Positions 6,107-20,287 of a stretch of 25,085 nucleotides of DNA are shown piece after piece. Position 1 is the stretch's first letter. Each line of letters opens with the position of its first letter. The stretch is from a virus. Lineage: Duplodnaviria; Heunggongvirae; Uroviricota; Caudoviricetes. The notes beneath the pieces were generated by a model. The model did no database searches. It saw nothing but the letters and a program-made list of their open reading frames with translations, and had not been told where the DNA came from. Location of the stretch: positions 1 to 25,085 of the IMG/VR virus record IMGVR_UViG_2778261692_000009, one strand, 5' to 3'. Both the position numbers and the translations under genes were made by a program.

Positions 6107-6530
6107 GTTTCACCGTCCACATTTCTTCAGGTTCATCAGGTTCTGCTACAGCTTCAACGCTCGACACACTGCCGTCAGTGCTGACCAGCACACGTTCCGT
6201 CAGTTGCAGGTTTAGGCTGATATCACAGACATCGTTGCGCAGAATATCTACCTCAAAGGTGAATAGCTTTTCCCGTAACGCCGGGTTATTGATGGCATCG
6301 GGCTGGTTATCCCGCAGCCACAATAAAACCGGGGCCATCAGCAGATTCTGGTCGCCGCTGAAATCCTCTATCACCACGTTCAGGGTATAGCGGTACTCCC
6401 ATGACATGGAGCTGGCCCCCGTGGCAACCAACGAACCGTTATCCACAAACAGATGCAGTTTGTCCGGGTTATTGCGGACATAAGGCACTGCTTTATTGAG
6501 GGCGTGGCGCAGGGATTGTGGTTTGTTCAT
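6099..6530 (-). CDS. R: tail completion protein (P2 gpR-like)
   Basis: Internal Met MNKPQSLRHALNKAV...LHLFVDNGS...YTLNVVIEDFSGD...WLRDNQPD matches recalled P2 gpR. Confidence 0.85.
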   Translation of the reverse strand: MNKPQSLRHALNKAVPYVRNNPDKLHLFVDNGSLVATGASSMSWEYRYTLNVVIEDFSGDQNLLMAPVLLWLRDNQPDAINNPALREKLFTFEVDILRNDVCDISLNLQLTERVLVSTDGSVSSVEAVAEPDEPEEMWTVKRG

Positions 6531-6783
6531 TGTTTCGCTCCTGACACGCAATAATCATGTCCACTTTGTCTGCACAGACCGCCCAGGCGGCCTCCGTTTC
6601 ATCCAGCAATGCGTTCAGACCACCGTTAGTGCGCGGCGCTGCCTGCTCCAGCCGACACGGCGTCACTCGCGGACAACCACTGACGGTAAGCTGCACCTCC
6701 GGTGAGTACCGGACGTTCCCGCAGCCGGATAATGTCAGCAGGCAAAGAAGTATCAGCCCAGCGGCGTAAATCCTCGTTCTCAC
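6493..6783 (-). CDS. lysC: outer-membrane spanin lipoprotein (LysC / Rz1-like)
   Basis: 96 aa with N-terminal signal and lipobox (LLTLSGC); out of frame and overlapping the 3' part of lysB, extending into the R start, which is the embedded/overlapped spanin architecture. Confidence 0.65.
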   Translation of the reverse strand: MRTRIYAAGLILLCLLTLSGCGNVRYSPEVQLTVSGCPRVTPCRLEQAAPRTNGGLNALLDETEAAWAVCADKVDMIIACQERNNEQTTIPAPRPQ

Positions 6784-7054
6784 GTTTCAGTTCCTCGATC
6801 CGGCGTTGTCGTTGTCTCAGCAGTGCGCTAGTCTGCTCTGCTTCGGTATAGAGCCGCGCCTGCTCCCGGTTATTGGTTTCAGCCAGAATGGACAGACCGA
6901 TCAGCTGGCTGTTTTTCTTCGTCAGTTCCTGCGCTTTACTTTTCAGCGCCGTGCGCTGCGTTTCGATGGTGTGGCTGGCGCTGTTAAGCCGCCACGACTG
7001 CCAGCCCAGCGCAACGAGTGCCAGCGCCACCACTACTGCCAGTGCACGCGTCAT
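6626..7054 (-). CDS. lysB: inner-membrane spanin (LysB / Rz-like)
   Basis: 142 aa; N-terminal transmembrane segment (ALAVVVALALVALGW) followed by a charged coiled-coil-like region; directly downstream of the endolysin gene. Confidence 0.7.
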   Translation of the reverse strand: MTRALAVVVALALVALGWQSWRLNSASHTIETQRTALKSKAQELTKKNSQLIGLSILAETNNREQARLYTEAEQTSALLRQRQRRIEELKRENEDLRRWADTSLPADIIRLRERPVLTGGAAYRQWLSASDAVSAGAGSAAH

Positions 7055-7566
7055 AGTCCAGCTCCTTTAAGGCACCAGGCCATCTCCCGCGCACGGCGGT
7101 TATCCAGCCCCTGATTAAACACACCTTTTACATAAACCCAGCGCGGCAACTGTCGGCATGCATCCGCCCAGCGCCGCTGATTGAGTAATTTCACCAGTGT
7201 GGAACTGCAGGCATTGCCCGTTCCCACGTTGAAGGCAAACGACACCGTAGCGTCATATACCTTCTGCGGCGGCTGTTGCTTCACACACCTTTCCAGCGCC
7301 CGCTCCACACGCAGCACGTTGGAAATCAGCCCTTCTGCTGCCTGTCGTTCCGTGATTGTTTTGCCGGGAATGACGCCCGATGTATTACCAATGCCGTCGG
7401 TCCAGACACCCGCGCTGCACTGATACGGCTGCAGACGACAGCCTTCGTAATCGACAATCAGTTTCAGCCCCTCCACGGAGGTGTGAAGCTGCTGAAAACC
7501 CGGCAGCGTGGCAGCAATAGCCAGCACGGTCCCGACAAGGCAGCGTTTAACGATTGATGGATTCAT
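7051..7566 (-). CDS. endolysin, T4-type lysozyme (GH24) with N-terminal signal-anchor-release domain
   Basis: 171 aa; hydrophobic N-terminus (CLVGTVLAIAATLPG) then E-x8-D-x5-T-like catalytic region and a C-terminus (LLNQRRWADACRQLPRWVYV...REMAWCL) resembling the phage 21 R-type SAR lysozyme. Confidence 0.85.
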   Translation of the reverse strand: MNPSIVKRCLVGTVLAIAATLPGFQQLHTSVEGLKLIVDYEGCRLQPYQCSAGVWTDGIGNTSGVIPGKTITERQAAEGLISNVLRVERALERCVKQQPPQKVYDATVSFAFNVGTGNACSSTLVKLLNQRRWADACRQLPRWVYVKGVFNQGLDNRRAREMAWCLKGAGL

Positions 7567-7762
7567 AGTCCTCCCGCGAGATCTGCCCGTCGCGCAGAAG
7601 CTGGTAGGCTTTGTGTTTGTAGTACCAGTTGATAGCCAGCATCAGCACACCAATCATCAGGCCGCCCAGCGTTGAGGCATCCTTGATGGACAAATCGCCC
7701 AGCCAGGCCAGCACGACGGCGATGCAATACGTGATAAAGGCGCTGATTCGCTCAAGCGTCAT
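7547..7762 (-). CDS. holin, probable class II pinholin
   Basis: 71 aa with two hydrophobic segments and a charged C-terminus; immediately upstream of and overlapping the SAR endolysin gene. Confidence 0.65.
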   Translation of the reverse strand: MTLERISAFITYCIAVVLAWLGDLSIKDASTLGGLMIGVLMLAINWYYKHKAYQLLRDGQISREDYESINR

Positions 7763-7765
7763 AAT

Positions 7766-7969
7766 TCAGTCCCATAGCCGGACGGTCTGCACGGTGGTGG
7801 TGGTCGGAATGTCCGGCAGCTCCACCTGCAGCCCGTGAGGTAAAAAGGGGCCGTATTCGGCAAGCCCCGGATTTGCCTTCAGTACCTGCTCCGTGACACC
7901 CTGCGTGCGCCCGTAATGACGCCAGCAAAGCGCGTCCACCGTGTCATACTGATGCGCACGCACTTTCAT
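7766..7969 (-). CDS. X: tail protein X (P2 gpX-like)
   Basis: 67 aa; ...DTVDALCWRHYGRTQGVTEQVLKANPGLAEYGPFLPHG..VELPD... is nearly collinear with recalled P2 gpX (67 aa). Confidence 0.9.
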   Translation of the reverse strand: MKVRAHQYDTVDALCWRHYGRTQGVTEQVLKANPGLAEYGPFLPHGLQVELPDIPTTTTVQTVRLWD

Positions 7970-8433
7970 CAGATAAGCTCCACTGTGCAGTGCGGCGCAT
8001 CCTGCACCCGGCTGATGGCCCAGCGGGCGTCACGCCACAAATCACCGCTGGCTTCTGACAGTTCTTCGCCCCGCTTCACACCGGATGCCGTAGCGTCATA
8101 GTCCTGGTATCGTTCGTTGAGCATGGCGCGTGCCCAGCAGTAAACCGCGTTGAAATAGTGCTGAATGCGCTCACTTTTCCCATCCAGCTGTTCTGCCGGA
8201 ACCTCTGCCAGCGAGGCATATCCCAGCATCTGCTGGCGTCTGCGAAACTCATACAGCTCTGCGTTGACCTCCGAAATTGCCGACAGGGCAACCTGTTTTA
8301 AACGCGGCTGCGTCACCGTGCCGTCAGTGCGCATGACACTGCGAAACTCCGACAGGTCCACATCAGGCCAGAACGGCGTATTCCTGATGATTTCCGCCTG
8401 TTCCGGTGCCTGTTCTGGCGCAACAAACTTCAT
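7969..8433 (-). CDS. L: head completion/stabilisation protein (P2 gpL-like)
   Basis: Internal Met at 8433 preceded by a GGAG ribosome-binding site; FWPDVDLSEFR...EVPAEQLDG...HYFNAVYCWA...CTVELI matches recalled gpL. Confidence 0.85.
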   Translation of the reverse strand: MKFVAPEQAPEQAEIIRNTPFWPDVDLSEFRSVMRTDGTVTQPRLKQVALSAISEVNAELYEFRRRQQMLGYASLAEVPAEQLDGKSERIQHYFNAVYCWARAMLNERYQDYDATASGVKRGEELSEASGDLWRDARWAISRVQDAPHCTVELI

Positions 8434-11233: not shown

Positions 11234-13000
11234 ATGAACACCACACTGACACCCGCAGATCTCGATCCCCGTCGGCAGGCCATGCTGCTGTACTTTCAGG
11301 GATACCGCGTCGCCCGCATTGCTGAAATGCTGGGCGAGAAAGTTGCAACCGTTCACAGCTGGAAAAAACGCGACAAGTGGGGTGACTATGGGCCGCTGGA
11401 TCAGATGCAGCTCACCACCGCCGCACGCTACTGCCAGCTCATTATGAAGGAGCACAAAGAAGGGAAAGATTTCAAAGAGATTGACCTGCTGGCGCGCCAG
11501 TCGGAACGCCACGCGCGGATCGGCAAGTTTAACAATGGCGGCAACGAAGCCGATTTAAACCCTAACGTCGCCAACCGCAACAAAGGCCCACGCCGTCAGC
11601 CGGAAAAGAACGTTTTCACCGATGAACAGATTGAGAAGCTGGAAGAAATTTTCCATTCCTCCATGTTCAACTACCAGCGCCACTGGTGGGAAGCCGGAAA
11701 AACCAACCGCATCCGCAACCTGCTGAAGTCACGCCAGATCGGCGCGACCTTTTACTTTGCCCGTGAAGCCCTGATTGACGCTCTGCTTACCGGACGTAAC
11801 CAGATTTTTCTTTCCGCCAGCAAGGCACAGGCCCACGTCTTTAAGCAGTACATCATCGACTTCGCCAAAGAAGTGGATGTGGAGCTGAAAGGCGATCCGA
11901 TGGTGCTTCCTAACGGGGCCACGCTTTACTTCCTCGGCACCAATGCCCGCACTGCCCAGAGTTATCACGGCAACCTGTATCTGGATGAATATTTCTGGAT
12001 ACCGAAATTCCAGGAGCTGCGCAAAGTGGCTTCCGGTATGGCTATTCACAAAAAATGGCGACAAACCTATTTTTCCACGCCATCCAGCCTGACCCACAGT
12101 GCTTATCCGTTCTGGTCCGGTGTGCTGTTCAACCGTGGGCGTAACAAAGCCGACAAGGTGGACATCGACCTGTCCCACAGCAATCTTGCCCCCGGCCTGC
12201 TGTGCGCAGACGGGCAGTACCGCCAGATAGTCACAGTGGAAGATGCGGTGCGCGGTGGCTGTAACCTGTTCGACCTCGACCAGTTGCGCATGGAGTACAG
12301 CCCGGACGAATACCAGAACCTGCTGATGTGTGAGTTCGTGGACGATCTAGCGTCCGTATTCCCACTCAGCGAACTACAGGCGTGCATGGTGGACAGCTGG
12401 GAAGTCTGGACCGACTTTCATGCACTGGCCCTGCGCCCGTTTGGCTGGCGCGAAGTATGGATCGGTTATGACCCGGCGAAAGGTACGCAGAACGGCGACA
12501 GCGCCGGATGCGTGGTGGTGGCGCCGCCAGCCGTGCCAGGTGGTAAGTTCCGCATTCTTGAGCGTCACCAGTGGCGCGGGATGGACTTCCGCGCCCAGGC
12601 TGACGCCATCAAAAAACTGACCGAACAGTACAACGTGACCTATATCGGCATCGACTCAACCGGCGTTGGTCACGGGGTTTACGAGAACGTGAAAGCGTTT
12701 TTTCCTGCCGTCCGGGAGTTTGTCTACAACCCCAACGTTAAAAACGCCCTGGTACTCAAGGCCTACGACATTATCAGCCACCGCCGTCTTGAGTTTGACG
12801 CCGGGCACACCGACATTGCGCAGTCATTCATGGCAATCCGTCGCGCCACCACCGCCAGCGGCAACCGCCCGACCTATGAAGCCAGCCGCAGCGAAGAAGC
12901 CAGCCATGCCGATCTGGCCTGGGCAACAATGCACGCACTGTTTAACGAACCACTGCAGGGCGAGTCCGCCAATACCAGCAATATTGTGGAGATTTTTTGA
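11234..13000 (+). CDS. P: terminase ATPase (large) subunit (P2 gpP-like)
   Basis: 588 aa (P2 gpP about 590 aa); start-stop overlap (ATGA) with the portal gene. Confidence 0.93.
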   Translation: MNTTLTPADLDPRRQAMLLYFQGYRVARIAEMLGEKVATVHSWKKRDKWGDYGPLDQMQLTTAARYCQLIMKEHKEGKDFKEIDLLARQSERHARIGKFNNGGNEADLNPNVANRNKGPRRQPEKNVFTDEQIEKLEEIFHSSMFNYQRHWWEAGKTNRIRNLLKSRQIGATFYFAREALIDALLTGRNQIFLSASKAQAHVFKQYIIDFAKEVDVELKGDPMVLPNGATLYFLGTNARTAQSYHGNLYLDEYFWIPKFQELRKVASGMAIHKKWRQTYFSTPSSLTHSAYPFWSGVLFNRGRNKADKVDIDLSHSNLAPGLLCADGQYRQIVTVEDAVRGGCNLFDLDQLRMEYSPDEYQNLLMCEFVDDLASVFPLSELQACMVDSWEVWTDFHALALRPFGWREVWIGYDPAKGTQNGDSAGCVVVAPPAVPGGKFRILERHQWRGMDFRAQADAIKKLTEQYNVTYIGIDSTGVGHGVYENVKAFFPAVREFVYNPNVKNALVLKAYDIISHRRLEFDAGHTDIAQSFMAIRRATTASGNRPTYEASRSEEASHADLAWATMHALFNEPLQGESANTSNIVEIF

Positions 13001-14028
13001 TGGGAAAGAGTAAGAAGAACCGCGCTGCGGCGACGAAACAGATCCAGCATAAAAACCAGACTTCAGCCGAAGCATTCAGCTTCGGTGATCCCGTTCCTGT
13101 TCTGGACCGCCGCGAACTGCTGGACTATGTGGAATGCGTACAGATGGACCGTTGGTATGAGCCACCAGTGAGTTTCGACGGCCTGGCGCGAACCTTCCGC
13201 GCCGCCGTACACCACAGCTCACCGATTGCAGTAAAGTGCAACATTCTGACCAGCACCTATATCCCTCACCCGTTGCTCAGCCAGCAGGCTTTTTCACGTT
13301 TTGTGCAGGACTATCTGGTATTTGGTAACGCCTACCTGGAGAAACGCACGAACCGCTTCGGTGAAATTATCGCCCTTGAGCCTGCTCTGGCAAAATACAC
13401 CCGACGCGGGTTAGACCTGGATACCTACTGGTTTGTGCAATACGGTATGACAACCCAGCCGTATCAGTTCACGAAAGGCAGCATCTTTCATCTGATGGAA
13501 CCGGACATCAACCAGGAGATCTACGGCCTGCCTGGCTATCTTTCTGCTATTCCATCCGCTCTGCTCAACGAGTCCGCCACGCTGTTCCGCCGTAAGTATT
13601 ACATCAATGGCAGCCATGCAGGCTTCATCATGTACATGACCGATGCCGCGCAGAACCAGGAAGATGTGAACAATCTCCGTAACGCGATGAAAAGCGCCAA
13701 AGGTCCGGGTAACTTCCGCAATCTGTTTATGTACTCACCTAATGGTAAAAAAGACGGACTTCAGATTATCCCATTGTCAGAAGTCGCAGCGAAGGATGAA
13801 TTTCTGAACATCAAGAACGTCAGCCGTGATGACATGATGGCGGCGCACCGTGTACCGCCTCAGATGATGGGGATTATGCCTAATAATGTCGGGGGGTTTG
13901 GGGATGTGGAGAAGGCGAGTAAAGTGTTTGTTCGTAATGAACTTCTTCCTCTACAAAAGAAAATAATTGAAATTAACAATTGGATAGATAATGAGGTCAT
14001 AAAATTCGAATTTTATGACCTCATGTAA
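12997..14028 (+). CDS. Q: portal protein (P2 gpQ-like)
   Basis: 343 aa (P2 gpQ about 344 aa); the last roughly 100 nt of the gene are AT-rich and end in a perfect palindrome. Confidence 0.93.
   Translation: MMGKSKKNRAAATKQIQHKNQTSAEAFSFGDPVPVLDRRELLDYVECVQMDRWYEPPVSFDGLARTFRAAVHHSSPIAVKCNILTSTYIPHPLLSQQAFSRFVQDYLVFGNAYLEKRTNRFGEIIALEPALAKYTRRGLDLDTYWFVQYGMTTQPYQFTKGSIFHLMEPDINQEIYGLPGYLSAIPSALLNESATLFRRKYYINGSHAGFIMYMTDAAQNQEDVNNLRNAMKSAKGPGNFRNLFMYSPNGKKDGLQIIPLSEVAAKDEFLNIKNVSRDDMMAAHRVPPQMMGIMPNNVGGFGDVEKASKVFVRNELLPLQKKIIEINNWIDNEVIKFEFYDLM
13991..14024. repeat. 34-bp perfect palindrome inside the 3' end of Q
   Basis: atgaggtcataaaattcgaattttatgacctcat is its own reverse complement (verified base by base); it encodes the last residues of Q (EVIKFEFYDLM). 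Confidence 0.9.
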
Positions 14029-14044
14029 CTGAATAAATATAATC

Positions 14045-14073
14045 AGGTAATGACTAAGCTGAAGTCATTACCT
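14045..14073. terminator. stem-loop (11-bp stem, 7-nt loop) between convergent Q and OLD-like genes; candidate terminator
   Basis: aggtaatgact-aagctga-agtcattacct; the minus-strand side is followed by a U-rich tract, and the stem overlaps the OLD-like stop codon. Confidence 0.4.
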
Positions 14074-15994
14074 CTCTAATCTCACTAATCCACTCTGGAA
14101 CACTATTTTCTTCCGCCATTAATTCAACATATCTTTTTGCGAATAAAAACTTATTATTTCCATCATCAAAAAATCTATTTATGGCATTTTTTTCACTAAC
14201 TCTGAGATCAAGAGCTGAGTAAGATTCCAGATTATCACTTGGAGCATCAATATTATTAATGAAACTTAAATAATCGTAATCACCAGCAAATGACAATAAG
14301 GTCTGGTAATAGATTTTTGCGTTCAAAACATCCTCTATCTCAGTTGCAGGCGATACCGGATTTGAGTCTATCTTAACTAAGATCGCCCTGTTTTTAGACG
14401 AATCATAAACAAATCTTTTACAATGTAATCTTTGATATGTTCCGACGTCATATCTGACCAACTGGCTATCAGTATCAGCTAACAAATATATATTTCCGGT
14501 AATCTCCCCTTCGACATCCTTATAGCAGGCAGAGAGATAGTTATATATTTTTTTAATTTCCGACGCCCCCCCAACAGGTACAATACGAAGATTATGATTC
14601 TTTATCAAATCCTTAAAATATGCTGAAAGATAAATTCTTTCCGATGAACCCTCACAAATCAACCAATTATATGGTTTCTCACCTGTTGCACTAGATAATA
14701 ATGACTGAGTAAAATCATTCATACTTTTAATTCTAATATCAAATGGTAACTTTCCCCTACTATCTCGAACAAGTTGTTTTATTTCTTCCCGGTAAGATGC
14801 TAAATTGATCAGATCAAAAAGATGCTCATTATTTTTTTTAGTTATTATTGTAACAGTTCCCTTTTCCAAGGTGGGGAGAAAACCATACCAATGAGAGGAA
14901 AACAATAGTTGCCTACATCCTAAACTTAGTTCTGATAACGCTTGAAATTGTTCAAAACAAGCAGACATGTGCAATGAAGACTCAGGCTCATCTATGGCTA
15001 TGATTAAATTATCACTATTACTTCTATGCTTTGTCAGCAATGCATGCGCAACATCAATAATAGCCTTCTGCTTTTCCCCCGAACTCAAATTACTAATTTC
15101 TAAAAAATGCTCGCCATTGTGGGTTTTATGTAATTTTCTGACGTTAAAAAACGCTTGTATAATTAAGTTATAGACTTCTTTTTTTTGAATTCTTTTTTGC
15201 CTATCCGAAGGCGTTCTATACGTATAGTTAACTAGCTTCGTTGAGATATCTTCAAGAAATCCGCTTAGTTCTCTGTTGATTTCTCCAATTTTTGACTCAC
15301 CAACTATTCTATCAAGAATTTCATGCAGCGATTCACCCATCAATACTTGAGTTCCAATACTCTCAAGCTTAGTAAAAACCTCAGTATCAATCTCTTTTGG
15401 TATATATAAATATTCTAACTTACCAGTGATATAATCAAATAAAACTTGAAAATGTTTAGCTAACTCTATACCTTCACTTAACTTGAATCCGGCACCAAAT
15501 ATATCTTTTTCCATTATAGTAGATAGACTTCTACCTGCTAAAACAGATAATGACATATTATTATTATGAAGGCGTCCAATAGGAATAATTAACTGCCCTT
15601 GCATATCATTTCGTGCAAAAAGTCTATCACGATGACTTATAAAATTTTCAAGAATAGTTTTTGTTTGTGAGTTTGTAGCATCCTCTAAGCTAACTTCCCT
15701 AGCTAAAGCATCTAGCGTTTTTGCAAAAGGGAGTGTCTCAGAATCAAAAAAATCCTCCTCCAATATAAAAACCGGTACAATATGTGGGCTGGTTTTTTCT
15801 ATGCCGCTCTTTTTGACAGCTGTATTATAATTCCACTCTTTAGCATTAAATATTACATCCAATGCCTCAAGTATTGAGCTTTTCCCTATCCCATTATTTC
15901 CTAAGAAACCGCTAAAATTTGGAGCGTCTGTCAAAGGAATATAATTTATGCCTTGATATGTTTTGACGTTACGGATAAACAACCCGGCTATCAT
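14054..15994 (-). CDS. OLD-family nuclease-like protein (N-terminal ABC/AAA ATPase plus C-terminal TOPRIM)
   Basis: Walker A GNNGIGKSS; signature-like SSGEKQ; Walker B LIIAIDEPESSLH; C-terminal LICEGSSE...IVPVGGASE...YLLADTDSQ collinear with recalled P2 Old TOPRIM motifs (LLVEGKTE...IVAVDGKG...ILADCDF). Likely start is Met29 at 15994 (MIAGLFIRNVKTYQ, AAGGTAGG ribosome-binding site); ORF track extends to 16078. AT-rich. Confidence 0.8.
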   Translation of the reverse strand: MIAGLFIRNVKTYQGINYIPLTDAPNFSGFLGNNGIGKSSILEALDVIFNAKEWNYNTAVKKSGIEKTSPHIVPVFILEEDFFDSETLPFAKTLDALAREVSLEDATNSQTKTILENFISHRDRLFARNDMQGQLIIPIGRLHNNNMSLSVLAGRSLSTIMEKDIFGAGFKLSEGIELAKHFQVLFDYITGKLEYLYIPKEIDTEVFTKLESIGTQVLMGESLHEILDRIVGESKIGEINRELSGFLEDISTKLVNYTYRTPSDRQKRIQKKEVYNLIIQAFFNVRKLHKTHNGEHFLEISNLSSGEKQKAIIDVAHALLTKHRSNSDNLIIAIDEPESSLHMSACFEQFQALSELSLGCRQLLFSSHWYGFLPTLEKGTVTIITKKNNEHLFDLINLASYREEIKQLVRDSRGKLPFDIRIKSMNDFTQSLLSSATGEKPYNWLICEGSSERIYLSAYFKDLIKNHNLRIVPVGGASEIKKIYNYLSACYKDVEGEITGNIYLLADTDSQLVRYDVGTYQRLHCKRFVYDSSKNRAILVKIDSNPVSPATEIEDVLNAKIYYQTLLSFAGDYDYLSFINNIDAPSDNLESYSALDLRVSEKNAINRFFDDGNNKFLFAKRYVELMAEENSVPEWISEIREVMTSA

Positions 15995-16084
15995 ATCTAT
16001 ACCTACCTTGGAATTAAAGAATGCTTTAGCACTTTGAAAACTTGCTGCAAATGATAACAGCATCGACATGGTTTGCAACGCGCG

Positions 16085-16103
16085 CTCGTATCCCCGCCAC
16101 GCC
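16085..16103 (-). other. candidate cos cohesive-end sequence
   Basis: Minus strand reads GGCGTGGCGGGGATACGAG; the first 13 nt match the cos 19-mer as I recall it for phage 186 (GGCGTGGCGGGGAAAGCAT) and reading onward leads toward Q, as at the P2 left end. From memory, not verified. Confidence 0.45.
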
Positions 16104-16489
16104 TGCCCGCTTTATGTAGTGGTTTTCATGCACTTGCATGACATAAACAAAAGCCCGCCATTCCTGGCGGGCCTCAGCTAAAACGATCCTCAAACGATCA
16201 TGCGAATTCATGCGGCATAGACATGCATTGTTGCTTTATCGATCTTTTCTTACTTCAAGTGAGTCCTTATGGCCTCCTGTCCACCTTGCGCTGCGCGTTC
16301 CCCCTGCCTCCCTTTGTCATAACTTAGATTTAATTCTCATAAATCAAGAGGTACTACACAAAGTACTAACTCACAATATTCAATAAACAGCCAATAATGA
16401 GCATAATACTAACTTGACTACTCCATAAAAAAATACGTAAACTACATTCATCAATAGTATTTCTCTAAAAAAGACGGGGTCACAATTCA

Positions 16490-17020
16490 ATGGCTACTAC
16501 CAACTGTATTACTGTACTTACTGCTCGTGGTTTAACAGAGATTTTGAACACAGGGGGAAGCCAAGCATGGAGACTTGACGCCAGCCATGCAGCTAAGCAC
16601 GAATATTTAGTTTGTGTACAAAATTCGAGAAAGGACTGGGGATCACAAGAAGCAAAACATCATCATGCTTTTATGATCGGTCGAATCTCGGGAGTAAGCA
16701 GGGCTCCAGAAAACCCTAAACGCTGGATCATAAACATCAATTCTTATGCTGAAATTGACATCCCAGGACAATGGGATGGCAATCGGAATCCCGTATCTTA
16801 TCGCAACCTCAAAGACATTGGCATTGAGGCTGACAAGTTGGAATTTAAAGCTCTTCCAAAATTAACCCCGACTAATTCGATTGTCGATCAAGCGGGTGAT
16901 GAGTACGAAGAAGAAGAAGAAAATGTAGTTAAGCCGTTAACACTTCAGGAGGCAAAAGCAGGGCTAGCCCTATACTTTGGTGTTAATGAAGAAAATATTC
17001 AAATAACTATACAAGGTTAA
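16490..17020 (+). CDS. hypothetical protein (176 aa, acidic C-terminal tract)
   Basis: ORF preceded by about 390 bp of AT-rich non-coding DNA; contains DEYEEEEEN; no family recognised; opposite strand to neighbouring phage genes. Confidence 0.5.
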   Translation: MATTNCITVLTARGLTEILNTGGSQAWRLDASHAAKHEYLVCVQNSRKDWGSQEAKHHHAFMIGRISGVSRAPENPKRWIININSYAEIDIPGQWDGNRNPVSYRNLKDIGIEADKLEFKALPKLTPTNSIVDQAGDEYEEEEENVVKPLTLQEAKAGLALYFGVNEENIQITIQG

Positions 17021-17241
17021 GGCTTTTAAACCGGCATAAGTGGCCATTACTTTTCGTTCGAAGTGGCGCTTCCGGTCTAACAAGCATCTAATAGGATTTT
17101 CGTATCTATCACAAATCCCAAAAGGTAATTTGCAGCCCATCATACGTAGCAAAACTAACGTTCGGTTAAATCTGAGCGGAAGTGAAAATAATGGTTACTG
17201 TATTTTACCCCATGACTAATGCCCCACTAAACTAGTTGTTC

Positions 17242-17762: not shown

Positions 17763-17778
17763 CTGTTTATATTTACAG
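17763..17778. promoter_or_regulatory. LexA operator (SOS box) overlapping the promoter of the Tum-like operon
   Basis: CTGTTTATATTTACAG is a perfect CTGT-N8-ACAG with an AT-rich spacer; on the minus strand a -35 TTTACA (17803..17798) and -10 TACTGT (17780..17775) are 17 bp apart, with the -10 overlapping the box. Confidence 0.7.
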
Positions 17779-17872: not shown

Positions 17873-20287
17873 TTAATACAGGTTCCGCCACTTATCATCT
17901 TCCCGCAAACGCTGGTTCCGATAGAAGATACGCAGGCCTGCTCCTGACGGAATACTGCCGCCGCGAAGGAGTAAATCGACCTCTTTCTCGCTACCATCAA
18001 ATCCTCTGGACTTCAGCTCATAGACGAGCTGCAGTCGCTGATGGTCTGTAATTCGCTGTTTGTAGTCTTTACGCCGTTTCGGTTTAACCAGGCGTAACCT
18101 TGCTGCCAGTTCCCAGCGCTCTTTTTTGCTCTTACTGTGCAGGTAATCGTGCAACTCCTTGTCATCCATGCGGGTAATGTCCGTTCTAGTGCCCCCATCA
18201 GCTGATTTATCTTTCTCCTGTTGGTTCAAATTTTCAGCAAGGGGACAGTTATTGCCACGAGTCCAAGGGGCGCAAGCGCCCTGGTCGGCTGCCGCCTCCT
18301 GAACGTCAACGGCTTTACGAACCATTTTCCACTTCACTGCATGAGTGCAGATCTTGCCCTCTGCAATGGGTGACCAGATGCCATAAATACGAATGCCGTG
18401 ATCGCCATAGGCGGTCGGCTCTTCGTTGATTTCATAAGCGGTTCTGATGAGGTGATATTTACGGGGAACCAGTACGCCGCCCTGCTTCATGATGTAGGTG
18501 GCAAAACAACCAGCATCAGCAGCAGCCAGGATGGCATCAAGGCGCGGGTTATCCAATACCGGCGCACCTGCTTTTTTGTCCCCCTTTTGCCTTACCGCCT
18601 GACCAGCCAGCAATCGCAGTTCACGGTAAGCCTGACGCCCCGGAATGCCAAAGAAGCGGAATTGCTGAACACGATGCAAAGACGCCCAGGCATTCACGTA
18701 TTCAGCGTTATCACGCAGAGATTTACCCGTTTCCTTGCTGATCTCGCCAGCCAGACCACGCCCGTCAATGTTCTTACTGATGTATTTCGCTATGTAGCTT
18801 GTCGGCGTTCCTTTGCGCGGGTTAATCAGCTCAGACTTAAAGCGCGGCCCCGTGTTATTGCCCAGCTCCTCGCGGTCTTCACGGATAGCAAACTTACGCA
18901 ACAATGCTGTAATGGCGCGGCGGTCTTTTTTGCGCATGAAACACAACAGGTGCCAGTGAACTGTGCCGTCGTGATGCGGCTCAGCCACCCGCACGCCATA
19001 CCAGCGCAACCCGGCTTTGTGCATCGCCTTACGAAATGCAGCAAACATACCGACCAGATAATCGCTGCTTTGTCTTACCGTCGCATTTGTCCAGGTCGGG
19101 TTGGGCCTGCCGTTATTTAGCGTGGAATGGAAACGTGACGGACAGGTGATGGTGTAGAAAACGGCGCAGTCACCGCGCATTTCCGCGATAAGCTCCAGAC
19201 CTTTAACACAGGCCATCATCTCATTGCGGCGATGCGCAGGGTTGCTGCTGCTGGCGTTTACCACATCCTCCATGTCTAGCGTGTCGCCGTCTTCGTTCAC
19301 CAGTTCATGAGAACGGAAAAACTCCAGCGACTTACGGCGCTGCTCACGTTTATGCAACACGGCTTCATAGCTGACATAGGGAGATGCTTTTTTGCTGACA
19401 AGGCAGACAGCACGCAACTGCTCTTCCCGCCATTCGCAACGCATCTTCCATAATTTCCGATACCACCAGTCGGCGCACAACATACGCGCCAGCGAACCCG
19501 GAATGAGTTCATAGGGCACGGGTTTACGGCGGTTTCTTTTCCGACGGAGTTGCTCAAACGCAGGCGGGATGACATCCAGACGCAGGGTTTCCGCTGCCAC
19601 CCTTTCCCATGTATTGCGGATTTCTTCTGGCTTAACGTCATCGGTGGCATACAAATCGCCACAAGCGGCATCAAGGCACATACTCATATGCGCAGCTACC
19701 AGGGTGGACAGGCGTTTCACCTGATCCTGACTCATTTCAGGCAGGATCAGCAGGCCGTCCAGCCCTTCATGGCTTGCCATAAAGCGAAAAGATGCAGATA
19801 GCTGACTGTCGCGTACATGCTCCAGTCGTTCCAGACATGGCTTAATCGTCTCACGTAAATAGCGGGAATAAGCCTTTGGCCTGCCCAGGCTGCTGAAGTA
19901 TTCAATACGTTGCATCAGCGGCTTGCTGATATGGGAAGGCTGGGCGTTGACGTCCGCCAGAATGACCATATCCGGATTAAAACGCTGCTGCTCATGCGCC
20001 AGCTTTGCCCGACTAATGAGCTTATCCTGTTCCATTTCGCGCTGGACAGGATCACGGGATTCATTAAAGAAATAACGCTCCCAGACCTGATCACTCAGCG
20101 CCTCACGGCGCAGCTGTTCCTGCTCGTTATCGGCAGCGTACAGAGTGATCAGGTTTGAAAGCGTAGAAACCGGCGCAACTTCCACCGGGTCCAGATAAGG
20201 GTTAATGGCCTTTTTCGAGCTGTTCCATGAGAACGATGCGGCAGCTTCGTTAAAGCCGCAGCAGTTGTTCATATCGGCATGACTCAT
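17873..20287 (-). CDS. A: replication initiation endonuclease (P2 gpA-like, rolling-circle HUH family)
   Basis: 804 aa; HUH-like motif (VHWHLL) and paired active-site tyrosines (YIAKYISK), as in P2 A; start overlaps the Dam stop. Confidence 0.9.

What the first reader, a model, noticed from the sequence alone, without database searches (positions are those of the whole stretch)
13920..14075. Mosaic junction at the 3' end of the portal gene with a perfect 34-bp palindrome and a second hairpin
The last roughly 100 nt of Q switch abruptly to AT-rich sequence and end in a perfect 34-bp palindrome (13991..14024) that encodes the final residues of the portal protein. A second 11-bp-stem hairpin follows 20 bp later and overlaps the OLD-like stop codon. 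This looks like the recombination boundary where the accessory island was joined to the structural module; the paired hairpins may act as a bidirectional terminator insulating convergent Q and OLD-like transcription.
Basis: seen in the sequence. Interest (0 to 1): 0.5.

Follow-up and report, generated by a model that had tools for sequence, protein, structure and literature searches.

The report
Defence-cassette edge inside a portal gene
The AT-rich end of this P2/186-like prophage's portal gene is the left edge of a swappable anti-phage gene cassette in an already known hotspot, and the cassette carries two conserved hairpins that most likely shape the ends of the two converging transcripts; it is a neat detail rather than a new kind of system.

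Summary
There is a perfect 34-bp palindrome at 13991-14024 inside the last 11 portal codons. An 11-bp stem at 14045-14073 overlaps the OLD-like stop. GC and homology both step down at 13939/13940.

The locus is the known gpQ-gpA/cos defence hotspot of P2-like phages. The cassette runs from about 13940 to about 16079. It holds the AT-rich portal tail, both stems and an OLD-type ATPase-TOPRIM gene, and it ends at cos (about 16085-16103).

Ten E. coli prophages with different backbones share 13852 to about 16120 almost identically. So swapping is by homologous recombination, with crossovers in the conserved portal block and in cos. The palindrome is not the junction; it lies 50 nt inside the cassette.

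Both stems recur in every carrier whose OLD is at least 78% identical. Six of 28 pairs changed on both sides, and loops and spacer vary freely. The stems persist even where the portal gene is dead.

Stem 2 looks like the OLD terminator. Neither stem has a U-tract on the portal strand. Stem 1 is most likely an RNA 3'-end barrier. An inverted repeat kept by template switching is the main rival.

Modest interest.

The parts
13852..13939 (+). Last highly conserved block of portal gene Q (encodes ...MPNNVGGFGDVEKASKVFVRNE). It serves as the left homology arm and crossover zone for cassette exchange.
   Evidence: Identity to 9 relatives with other cargo is 0.81-0.99 here. In 4 of 5 other E. coli carriers the last backbone difference is at 13851, and the sequence is identical after that.
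13940..14028 (+). AT-rich, cassette-linked C-terminal tail of the portal ORF (LLPLQKKIIEINNWIDNEVIKFEFYDLM plus stop).
   Evidence: Identity to relatives with other cargo falls to 0.49-0.71. GC is 0.26-0.27. The tail is identical in carriers with different backbones. In L028/L029/L034 it survives from 'LPLQKKM' onward, fused to a P fragment, after loss of the Q body.
13991..14024 (.). Stem 1: a perfect 34-bp palindrome (17+17). As RNA it forms a 15-bp stem with a 4-nt loop on either strand.
   Evidence: It is conserved as a stem in all five variant sequences, with 4 pairs changed on both sides. Mean pairwise identity is 0.78 across stem 1, against 0.41 for the spacer.
14045..14073 (-). Stem 2: an 11-bp stem with a 7-nt loop that overlaps the OLD-like stop codon. 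It is the likely intrinsic terminator of the OLD-like mRNA and a possible exonuclease barrier for the P-Q mRNA.
   Evidence: It is terminator-like on the - strand only, with tail GATTATATTT. Two pairs changed on both sides, and the loop varies freely. Five of nine relatives with other cargo have their own perfect stem of >=8 bp starting 2-6 nt after the portal stop.
14054..15997 (-). Cargo gene: an OLD-family ATPase (AAA_15/AAA_21) plus TOPRIM protein, 647 aa counted from the ATG that gives MIAGLFIRNVK.
   Evidence: Pfam. PADLOC gives AriA-ATPase and Old partial matches. Homologues start at MIAGLFIRNVK. GC is 0.34.
16051..16078 (-). Promoter-like site for the cargo gene (TTGCAA, 16-nt spacer, TG-TATCAT), directly next to cos.
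   Evidence: Consensus scan only: 9 of 12 positions plus an extended -10 TG. This is an inference.
16079..16227 (.). Conserved cos block. The cohesive-end homologue is at about 16085-16103 (...CCCCGCCACGCC). This block is the right edge and right homology arm of the cassette.
   Evidence: It is shared at 88-97% with Fels-2, RE2010, SopEphi and Yersinia and Klebsiella phages. Window 16091-16142 matches the circularised 186 cos junction at 86.5%. Backbone differences from the other carriers restart at 16120-16134.

Best explanation
The region is the left edge of a swappable defence cassette in the known portal(Q)-cos-gpA hotspot of P2/186-like prophages.

The cassette (about 13940-16079) holds four things:
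- its own AT-rich version of the last ~28 portal codons;
- stem 1, the palindrome, inside those codons;
- stem 2, overlapping the stop of the convergent OLD-type ATPase-TOPRIM gene;
- that gene with its promoter, which abuts cos.

The cassette moves between phage backbones by homologous recombination. Crossovers fall in the last conserved portal block on one side and in the cos block on the other. This part is shown.

The two stems most likely act at the RNA level as a 3'-end module between the two converging transcription units. This part is inferred.
- Stem 2, with its U-rich tail, terminates the OLD mRNA.
- The late P-Q transcript has no U-tract after either stem. It runs into untranslated, C-rich, G-poor RNA, where Rho would stop it. 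It would then be trimmed back to the stems, which protect the portal ORF.
- Stem 1 is a second barrier on both strands. In particular it would block OLD read-through from running antisense into Q and P.
For: Hotspot and cassette (shown)
- Gene order is P, Q, OLD-like, cos, DinI/Tum-like, gpA.
- In P2 and 186 the same interval holds only tQ/tW and then cos.
- Nine relatives carry nine other cargoes that converge on Q. Each has its own AT-rich tail allele (25-33% GC), against 53-56% GC in P2 and 186.
- The identity step is at 13939/13940.
- The block from 13852 to about 16120 is nearly identical in backbones that differ by 4-9% elsewhere. One lineage has a different left crossover.
- The hotspot is published.

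Stems are constrained
- They are present in all five distinct variants whose OLD is >=78% identical: window, L013, L016, L017/L055 and L028/29/34.
- 90.7% of cells are paired and 6 of 28 pairs changed on both sides. Slid-register controls give 0-3 such pairs and 23-49% paired.
- Mean pairwise identity is 0.78 across stem 1 and 0.74 in the stem-2 arms, against 0.39-0.41 for the loop and spacer and 0.64 for the upstream tail.
- Stem 1 persists where Q is frameshifted (L013), truncated (L055) or deleted (L028). In L028 its right arm is no longer coding.

RNA-level reading
- Stem 2 is terminator-like on the - strand.
- The 80 nt after stem 2 on the + strand are C 26% and G 6%.
- In E. coli, Rho-dependent transcripts end just after stable stems that lack a U-tract, with rut sites downstream (PMC6061677).
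- Five of nine other cassettes have a perfect stem of >=8 bp at the equivalent position just after the portal stop.
Against: - There are no transcript 3'-end data, so the RNA role is inferred from anatomy alone.
- Stem 1 has no U-tract on either strand, and no other cargo type has a stem inside the tail. A general need of the portal mRNA therefore cannot explain it.
- Pairing runs through the centre (TTCGAA) in three variants. An RNA hairpin does not need that; it fits a DNA-level symmetry or a templated origin better.
- Changes on both sides can arise without selection, by template switching between the arms of an inverted repeat (PMC5941160).
- Only five distinct sequences were available.
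- Wobble and mismatch states point to neither strand.
Confidence: 0.55

Rival explanations
1. Stem 1 has no function of its own. It is an inverted repeat that grew out of a partly self-complementary codon string (EVIKF..Y.L; GAG/CTC, ATA/TAT). Template switching during replication (quasipalindrome correction) keeps it near-perfect by copying a change in one arm onto the other.
For: - The left arm is ancestral portal coding sequence: GAGGTCAT is shared with P2 and 186, and 186 already has GAGG...CCTC.
- The palindrome runs through its centre with no loop.
- Perfect inverted repeats are over-conserved in Proteobacteria, and this is attributed to template switching (PMC5941160; PMC7202029).
- Only this one cassette clade has the stem.
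- It has no terminator tail on either strand.
Against: - The palindrome is the best conserved part of the tail: 59% invariant columns, against 33% upstream and 5% in the spacer. Concerted evolution alone does not predict that.
- The stem base uses GC-rich codons (GAG...CTC) in all five variants, although the tail is 26% GC and other tails mostly use TTA for that Leu.
- It persists in three lineages where the portal gene is dead.
- Two variants (L016, L017) carry 2-3 uncorrected mismatches.
Confidence: 0.25
2. Stem 1 works as double-stranded DNA. It would be a symmetric binding site for a dimeric protein, or an AT-rich cruciform-prone site. Possible roles are regulating the cargo gene, interacting with the OLD-type nuclease, or stimulating recombination at the hotspot edge.
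For: - It is a perfect dyad with no spacer, in AT-rich flanks.
- Symmetric changes in both half-sites are also what a coevolving dimer site would show.
- It travels strictly with this OLD clade.
- In L018/L033 a different junction falls exactly where the palindrome starts.
Against: - No candidate binding protein is encoded in the cassette other than the nuclease itself.
- The centre is not conserved in L013 or L028.
- The mapped crossovers are not at the palindrome.
- Nothing comparable is present in the 62% and 71% OLD relatives.
Confidence: 0.1
3. The palindrome and hairpin are the recombination site or scar through which the island was inserted. This would be site-specific or transposon-like insertion.
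For: They are close to the GC step. Palindromes are used by some recombinases (general knowledge).
Against: - The step is at 13940, 50 nt upstream of the palindrome.
- Both stems lie inside the block that is transferred intact.
- The two cassette edges share no repeats, and there is no second copy of the arm in the window.
- The cassette has no recombinase or transposase gene.
- Other cargoes use the same edge without this palindrome.
Confidence: 0.03

Closest known systems
gpQ-gpA (cos-proximal) defence hotspot of P2-like phages (Rousset et al. 2022, PMC9122126; NAR 2026, PMC13586616); historically the tin/old 'TO region' of P2
   Same: The position is the same: between portal gene Q and replication gene A, next to cos. 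As there, AT-rich variable cargo sits between conserved flanks, the cargo has defence-type domains (OLD family), and swapping between otherwise similar phages is rapid.
   Different: - Here the cargo lies on the portal side of cos and converges on Q. In P2 itself, old and tin lie on the other side of cos (from my own knowledge of the P2 map, not checked here).
- A search of those two papers found no mention of a breakpoint inside the portal ORF, a cassette-linked portal tail, a terminator, a hairpin or a palindrome.
tQ of P2 and tW of 186 (annotated rho-independent terminators of the late P/Q operon)
   Same: They occupy the same place, just after the portal stop, and the presumed job is the same: ending the late P-Q transcript.
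   Different: tQ and tW are GC-rich stems with a T-run on the portal strand. Stem 2 here is AT-rich (4 GC pairs of 11). It overlaps the stop of a convergent gene and has a U-rich tail only on the opposite strand. Stem 1 lies inside the portal ORF and has no U-tract.
[quoted passage not shown]
   Same: Both are stable stems without a uridine tract, followed immediately by C-rich, G-poor, untranslated RNA.
   Different: Neither Rho dependence nor the actual 3' ends were measured here. Stem 1 sits within a translated ORF, not downstream of it.
Quasipalindromes kept perfect by template switching (Ripley; Lovett; Lavi et al. 2018, PMC5941160)
   Same: It is a short inverted repeat whose arms change together across lineages. 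It is perfect in one lineage and nearly perfect in the others.
   Different: The arm sequence is more conserved than its neighbourhood. It is paired with a second covarying stem 20 nt away.

Membership tests
P2-like gpQ-gpA/cos defence hotspot cassette | Lies between portal gene Q and replication gene A of a P2-like prophage | tested here: met
   Q at 12997-14028 (PF04860), gpA at 17873-20287 (PF05840), with P2-type terminase and capsid genes alongside.
P2-like gpQ-gpA/cos defence hotspot cassette | Lies next to the cos packaging site | tested here: met
   Window 16091-16142 matches the 186 cos core plus right-end flank at 86.5%. The 16079-16227 block is conserved across Fels-2-like phages.
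P2-like gpQ-gpA/cos defence hotspot cassette | Different cargo in otherwise related phages, between conserved flanks | tested here: met
   Nine other cargo types occur at the same place. The same cargo occurs in backbones that differ by 4-9%.
P2-like gpQ-gpA/cos defence hotspot cassette | Cargo provides anti-phage defence | not testable with these tools
   Only domain-level similarity is available: AAA_15/AAA_21 plus OLD-like TOPRIM and PADLOC AriA/Old partial matches.
Intrinsic (rho-independent) terminator | Stem-loop followed at once by a U-rich tract on the transcribed strand | tested here: met
   This applies to stem 2 on the - strand only: 11-bp stem, 7-nt loop, tail GATTATATTT. The U-tract is weak and the stem has only 4 GC pairs.
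Intrinsic (rho-independent) terminator | The same features on the + strand (portal direction), for either stem | tested here: not met
   Stem 1 is followed by GTAACTGAAT and stem 2 by CTCTCTAATC. Neither was flagged on the + strand, and stem 1 was flagged on neither strand.
Rho-dependent 3'-end protective stem (Dar & Sorek type) | Stable stem without a U-tract, with C-rich, G-poor untranslated RNA just downstream | tested here: met
   Fold energies are -19.1 and -14.3 kcal/mol on the + strand. The 80 nt after stem 2 are C 26.2% and G 6.2%.
Rho-dependent 3'-end protective stem (Dar & Sorek type) | A steady-state 3' end immediately after the stem that depends on Rho and on PNPase/RNase II | not testable with these tools
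   Needs Term-seq with and without bicyclomycin, and exonuclease mutants.
OLD-family nuclease, single-gene (class 1-like) | N-terminal ABC-type ATPase plus C-terminal TOPRIM in one polypeptide, with no adjacent helicase partner | tested here: met
   AAA_15 at residues 30-396 and OLD-like TOPRIM at 472-518 of the long ORF. The neighbours are Q and cos, so there is no partner gene. The PADLOC 'Old' match is only partial, so this is a distant relative of P2 Old.
Site-specific recombination or transposon end | The site recurs at both ends of the mobile unit, or a cognate recombinase is encoded nearby | tested here: not met
   There are no shared repeats at the edges and no second copy of the arm. 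The cassette encodes no recombinase.
Curated RNA family (Rfam 15) | Match at the gathering score | tested here: not met
   Only sub-threshold chance hits turned up, to a lncRNA model and a miRNA model.

The most novel reading that the evidence does not exclude
The lack of any portal-strand terminator might be a feature rather than a gap. In the lysogen the OLD-type nuclease gene is transcribed and stops at stem 2. On induction, late P-Q transcription would run through both U-less stems into the cargo gene. Antisense RNA and polymerase collision would then shut the defence nuclease off, so it does not attack the phage's own replicating DNA. The stems would set how much read-through occurs.

A related reading is that each cassette supplies its own portal C-terminus because that tail has to be compatible with, or invisible to, the defence it travels with.
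Probability: 0.08. Interest if true: 0.6.

Novelty: new member of a known kind. Interest (0 to 1): 0.3.

Why it matters
The hotspot itself is well known. How its cassettes are exchanged is still stated to be unresolved (PMC13586616).

This locus gives a base-level example. One crossover zone is the last conserved block of the portal ORF, and the other is cos. As a result every swap also replaces the portal's last ~28 residues, so an essential structural protein is chimeric, with dozens of tail alleles.

That offers a simple marker, the tail allele, for tracing cassette history. It also leaves an open puzzle: why are all cargo-linked tails AT-rich?

The covarying stem inside the coding tail is a small, testable case for telling a functional RNA or DNA structure from an inverted repeat maintained by mutation.

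None of this changes how the system is thought to work.

Tried and rejected
- P2-type cos 19-mer in the window: no match with up to 3 mismatches. The phage has a 186-type core instead.
- Same cargo in sequenced phages (INPHARED, tblastn) and in plasmids: none.
- Diverged copies of the tail and cassette in E. coli at low stringency: only the same 10 genomes.
- L028/L029/L034 as an independent, non-phage context for the cassette: rejected. It is a P2-like prophage with a ~2.3-kb internal deletion that joins P (window 11535-11667) to the portal tail.
- The + strand promoter-like site ATGACC-17-TATAAT (14015-14043), which overlaps the right arm: by eye it is not conserved in L016 or L017 (sequences), so I treat it as chance.
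- Wobble and mismatch polarity as a way to decide which strand folds: G.U-type states occur for both strands, so it is uninformative.
- Rfam: nothing.
- PDB by sequence for the portal protein: nothing. I did not pursue a structural view of the tail.
- Terminal repeats at the cassette edges, or a second copy of the palindrome arm: none.
- An AT-rich donor phage in which the whole portal gene is AT-rich: not found. L016, L017 and L013 show the same GC step.
- The portal-tail protein search returned only short, fragmentary ORFs, so it gave allele diversity but few usable DNA contexts.
Full report
**What is there.** The window is a P2/186-like (Fels-2-type) prophage, read in the reverse of the P2 map. 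It is nearly identical to a prophage of E. coli strain 160-11H1.
- Terminase P is at 11234-13000 (+) and portal Q at 12997-14028 (+).
- They are followed by a convergent 647-674-aa ORF (14054 to 15997/16078, - strand) with AAA_15/AAA_21 ATPase and OLD-like TOPRIM domains.
- A DinI/Tum-like gene and replication gene A lie further on.

- A perfect 17+17 palindrome lies at 13991-14024 and encodes N-EVIKFEFYDL-M, just before the portal stop.
- An 11-bp stem with a 7-nt loop lies at 14045-14073, 20 nt later. The OLD-like stop sits in its left arm and loop.
- GC falls from about 50% to 24-35% from about 13940.
- These are the only two perfect stems of >=10 bp in the 25 kb. No shuffle gave a 17-bp arm, and about 8e-5 are expected. 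Both fold far better than shuffled sequence on either strand.

**Where it sits.** In P2 and 186 the annotated order is portal stop, then terminator tQ/tW a few bases later, then cos about 160 bp further on. The window has no P2-type cohesive end. But 16091-16142 matches the circularised 186 junction at 86.5%: the cos core CCCCGCCACGCC followed by the 186 right-end flank. The 16079-16227 block is shared at 88-97% with Fels-2, RE2010, SopEphi and many Klebsiella and Yersinia phages. So the OLD-like gene fills the portal-to-cos interval. Its promoter-like site (16051-16078) abuts cos.

This is the cos-proximal gpQ-gpA hotspot of anti-phage systems described for P2-like phages (PMC9122126; PMC13586616). 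Nine relatives fetched here carry nine other cargoes in the same place, all converging on Q. They include an Abi protein, a retron-type RT, Hypoth_Ymh, DUF6953, DUF262, two HNH+AAA pairs and an S1 peptidase.

**The junction.** Identity between the window and those nine relatives is 0.81-0.99 per 15-nt bin up to 13939, and 0.49-0.71 from 13940 to the stop. This coincides with the GC step.
- The portal tail is still homologous at protein level, on the scaffold LPLQ..I.E.N.W....I.F..Y.L. But every cargo type has its own allele.
- A search of 5.8 billion proteins shows dozens of alleles.
- All cargo-linked tails are 25-33% GC, whereas the P2 and 186 tails are 53-56%.
- The same step is present in carriers whose backbones are only about 80% identical to the window.

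**High-resolution mapping.** Ten of 5,426 complete E. coli genomes carry this tail plus OLD cassette.
- In four of the five I fetched, P and Q differ from the window by 7-18 substitutions per 200 nt up to 13851.
- There are then 0-2 differences per 200 nt until 16120-16134, inside the cos block. Beyond 16228 the sequence is unrelated.
- The fifth has its left crossover further upstream.

So the cassette moves by homologous recombination, with the last conserved portal block and cos as arms, and the portal tail is carried along. A rearranged prophage (L028/L029/L034) has lost about 2.3 kb. It joins an internal P fragment directly to the tail at 'LPLQKKM', the same edge. The palindrome is 50 nt inside this block, so it is not the joint. 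The edges share no repeats, there is no second copy of the arm, and the cassette has no recombinase.

**The stems are conserved structures.** I collected OLD-cargo junctions using the protein as query, not the palindrome.
- Every carrier whose OLD is >=78% identical has both stems in the same places but with different sequences. These carriers are the window, Enterobacter ludwigii L013, L016, L017/L055 and L028/29/34.
- For example, L013 has GAGGTAGTAAGAT-TCAC-ATCTTACTACCTC.
- On the five distinct sequences, 90.7% of cells pair and 6 of 28 pairs changed on both sides (4 in stem 1, 2 in stem 2). One position shows A-U, U-A, G-C and G-U. Registers slid by 1-3 columns give 23-49% paired and 0-3 such pairs (four-sequence version).
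- Mean pairwise identity is 0.78 across stem 1 and 0.74 in the stem-2 arms. The stem-2 loop and the spacer are at 0.39-0.41, and the upstream tail coding sequence at 0.64.
- Stem 1 persists where the portal gene is frameshifted (L013), truncated (L055) or deleted (L028). In L028 a 1-nt insertion makes the right arm non-coding.
- The left arm is ancestral coding sequence: GAGGTCAT is shared with P2 and 186. The right arm's free codons are the ones that complete the pairing.
- No other cargo type has a stem inside the tail. Five of the nine have a perfect stem of >=8 bp starting 2-6 nt after the portal stop, several of them GC-rich and flanked by A/T runs.
- More distant OLD homologues differ. 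The 62% relative sits in a P2-type portal tail. The 71% and 45-57% relatives sit in other contexts. None of them has stem 1, and most have one ordinary terminator.

**How it most likely works.** Stem 2 fits an intrinsic terminator only on the - strand, the OLD direction. Its stem is AT-rich and its U-tract modest, so some read-through is plausible. On the + strand neither stem has a U-tract, so there is no counterpart of tQ/tW. The 80 nt after stem 2 are untranslated on that strand, with C 26% and G 6%. Stable U-less stems with rut-like sequence downstream are what mark and protect the 3' ends of Rho-terminated transcripts in E. coli (PMC6061677).

My best reading is therefore a two-stem RNA 3'-end module between converging units.
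- Stem 2 ends the OLD mRNA.
- The late P-Q transcript is stopped by Rho in the antisense of OLD and trimmed back to the stems.
- Stem 1 is a second barrier, notably against OLD read-through into Q and P.

This is inference from anatomy. I put it at roughly one in two for the pair as a whole, and higher for stem 2 as the OLD terminator.

**Rivals.**
- The main rival for stem 1 is that it is an inverted repeat with no function, built on a partly self-complementary codon string and kept by template switching. Template switching also makes both arms change together (PMC5941160). In its favour are the loop-less centre and the restriction to one cassette clade. Against it are the higher conservation of the arms, the GC-rich stem base in an AT-rich tail, and persistence after the portal gene's death.
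- A DNA-level dyad site or cruciform cannot be excluded.
- A recombination-site role is effectively excluded.

**Verdict.** The 'mosaic junction' reading is right in substance. But the junction is at 13940, it belongs to a known hotspot, and the exchange is homologous. The 'bidirectional terminator' reading is only half right.

What is new is detail:
- the cassette edge lies inside the portal ORF, so each cassette brings its own portal C-terminus;
- one cassette clade carries a covarying stem inside that coding tail.

I found no mention of either in the hotspot papers searched. Interest is modest.

Noticed in passing
window 16228-17230 (ORF 16490-17020, +): There is a second variable slot on the far side of cos, between cos and the DinI/Tum-like gene. 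The window has a 176-aa ORF there with no Pfam or PADLOC match. Other carriers of the same OLD cassette have nothing, WP_000834899, or a 612-bp hypothetical gene there. So cos splits the hotspot into two slots that vary independently.
   Followed up: partly
window 17763-17778: CTGTTTATATTTACAG is a good LexA-box match (CTGT-N8-ACAG). It lies upstream of the small ORF and the DinI/Tum-like gene on the - strand. This fits the LexA-repressed tum arrangement annotated in phage 186.
   Followed up: no
window 15997-16078; L049 8082-8267: RefSeq starts the OLD-like CDS at the ATG near 16069, only about 16 nt from cos and upstream of the promoter-like -10. Homologues and the Pfam alignment point to the ATG at 15997 (MIAGLFIRNVK). 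RefSeq also calls a 'hypothetical protein, internal stop' pseudogene that spans cos, probably an artefact.
   Followed up: partly
L028, L029, L034 (metagenome contigs); equivalent to window 11535-11667 joined to about 13945: A rearranged P2-like element lacks the 3' two-thirds of P and the whole Q body. The remaining P fragment is fused in frame to the portal tail, giving a 68-aa ORF. A DUF6602 gene lies upstream, and the OLD cassette, cos and a gpA remnant are kept.
   Followed up: partly
L050 (E. coli ETEC6335) 6110-8124: In this carrier the OLD-like gene is annotated as two CDSs (an 'ATP-dependent nuclease' and a 'hypothetical protein'). It is apparently split by a mutation, while the stems are unchanged.
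   Followed up: no
L018/L019/L033, portal 3' end: A 62%-identical OLD homologue sits behind a P2-type portal gene. There P2 homology stops at ...GGTCAGGA, the position equivalent to the start of the window's palindrome. Only the last ~35 nt are AT-rich, and a separate stem (ATAGAGGCAT-GTATA-ATGCCTCTAT) follows the stop.
   Followed up: partly
L020 and L037, about 55-110 nt downstream of the OLD-homologue stop: A tandem heptamer repeat, AACCTCT x7-8, follows the terminator of a 47%-identical OLD homologue in a non-P2 context.
   Followed up: no
L055 (Logan contig ERR4405716_56496): A truncated portal remnant (last 81 aa) plus the OLD cassette lies next to an AraC-type gene. The contig ends exactly at the position equivalent to window 16103, the end of the cos core. 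That could reflect a cos end in the reads, or an assembly break in the conserved block.
   Followed up: no
window 13991-14024, both strands: The palindrome is centred between two codons, so the - strand reads the same peptide (EVIKFEFYDL) in one frame. This is a curiosity with no ORF around it.
   Followed up: no
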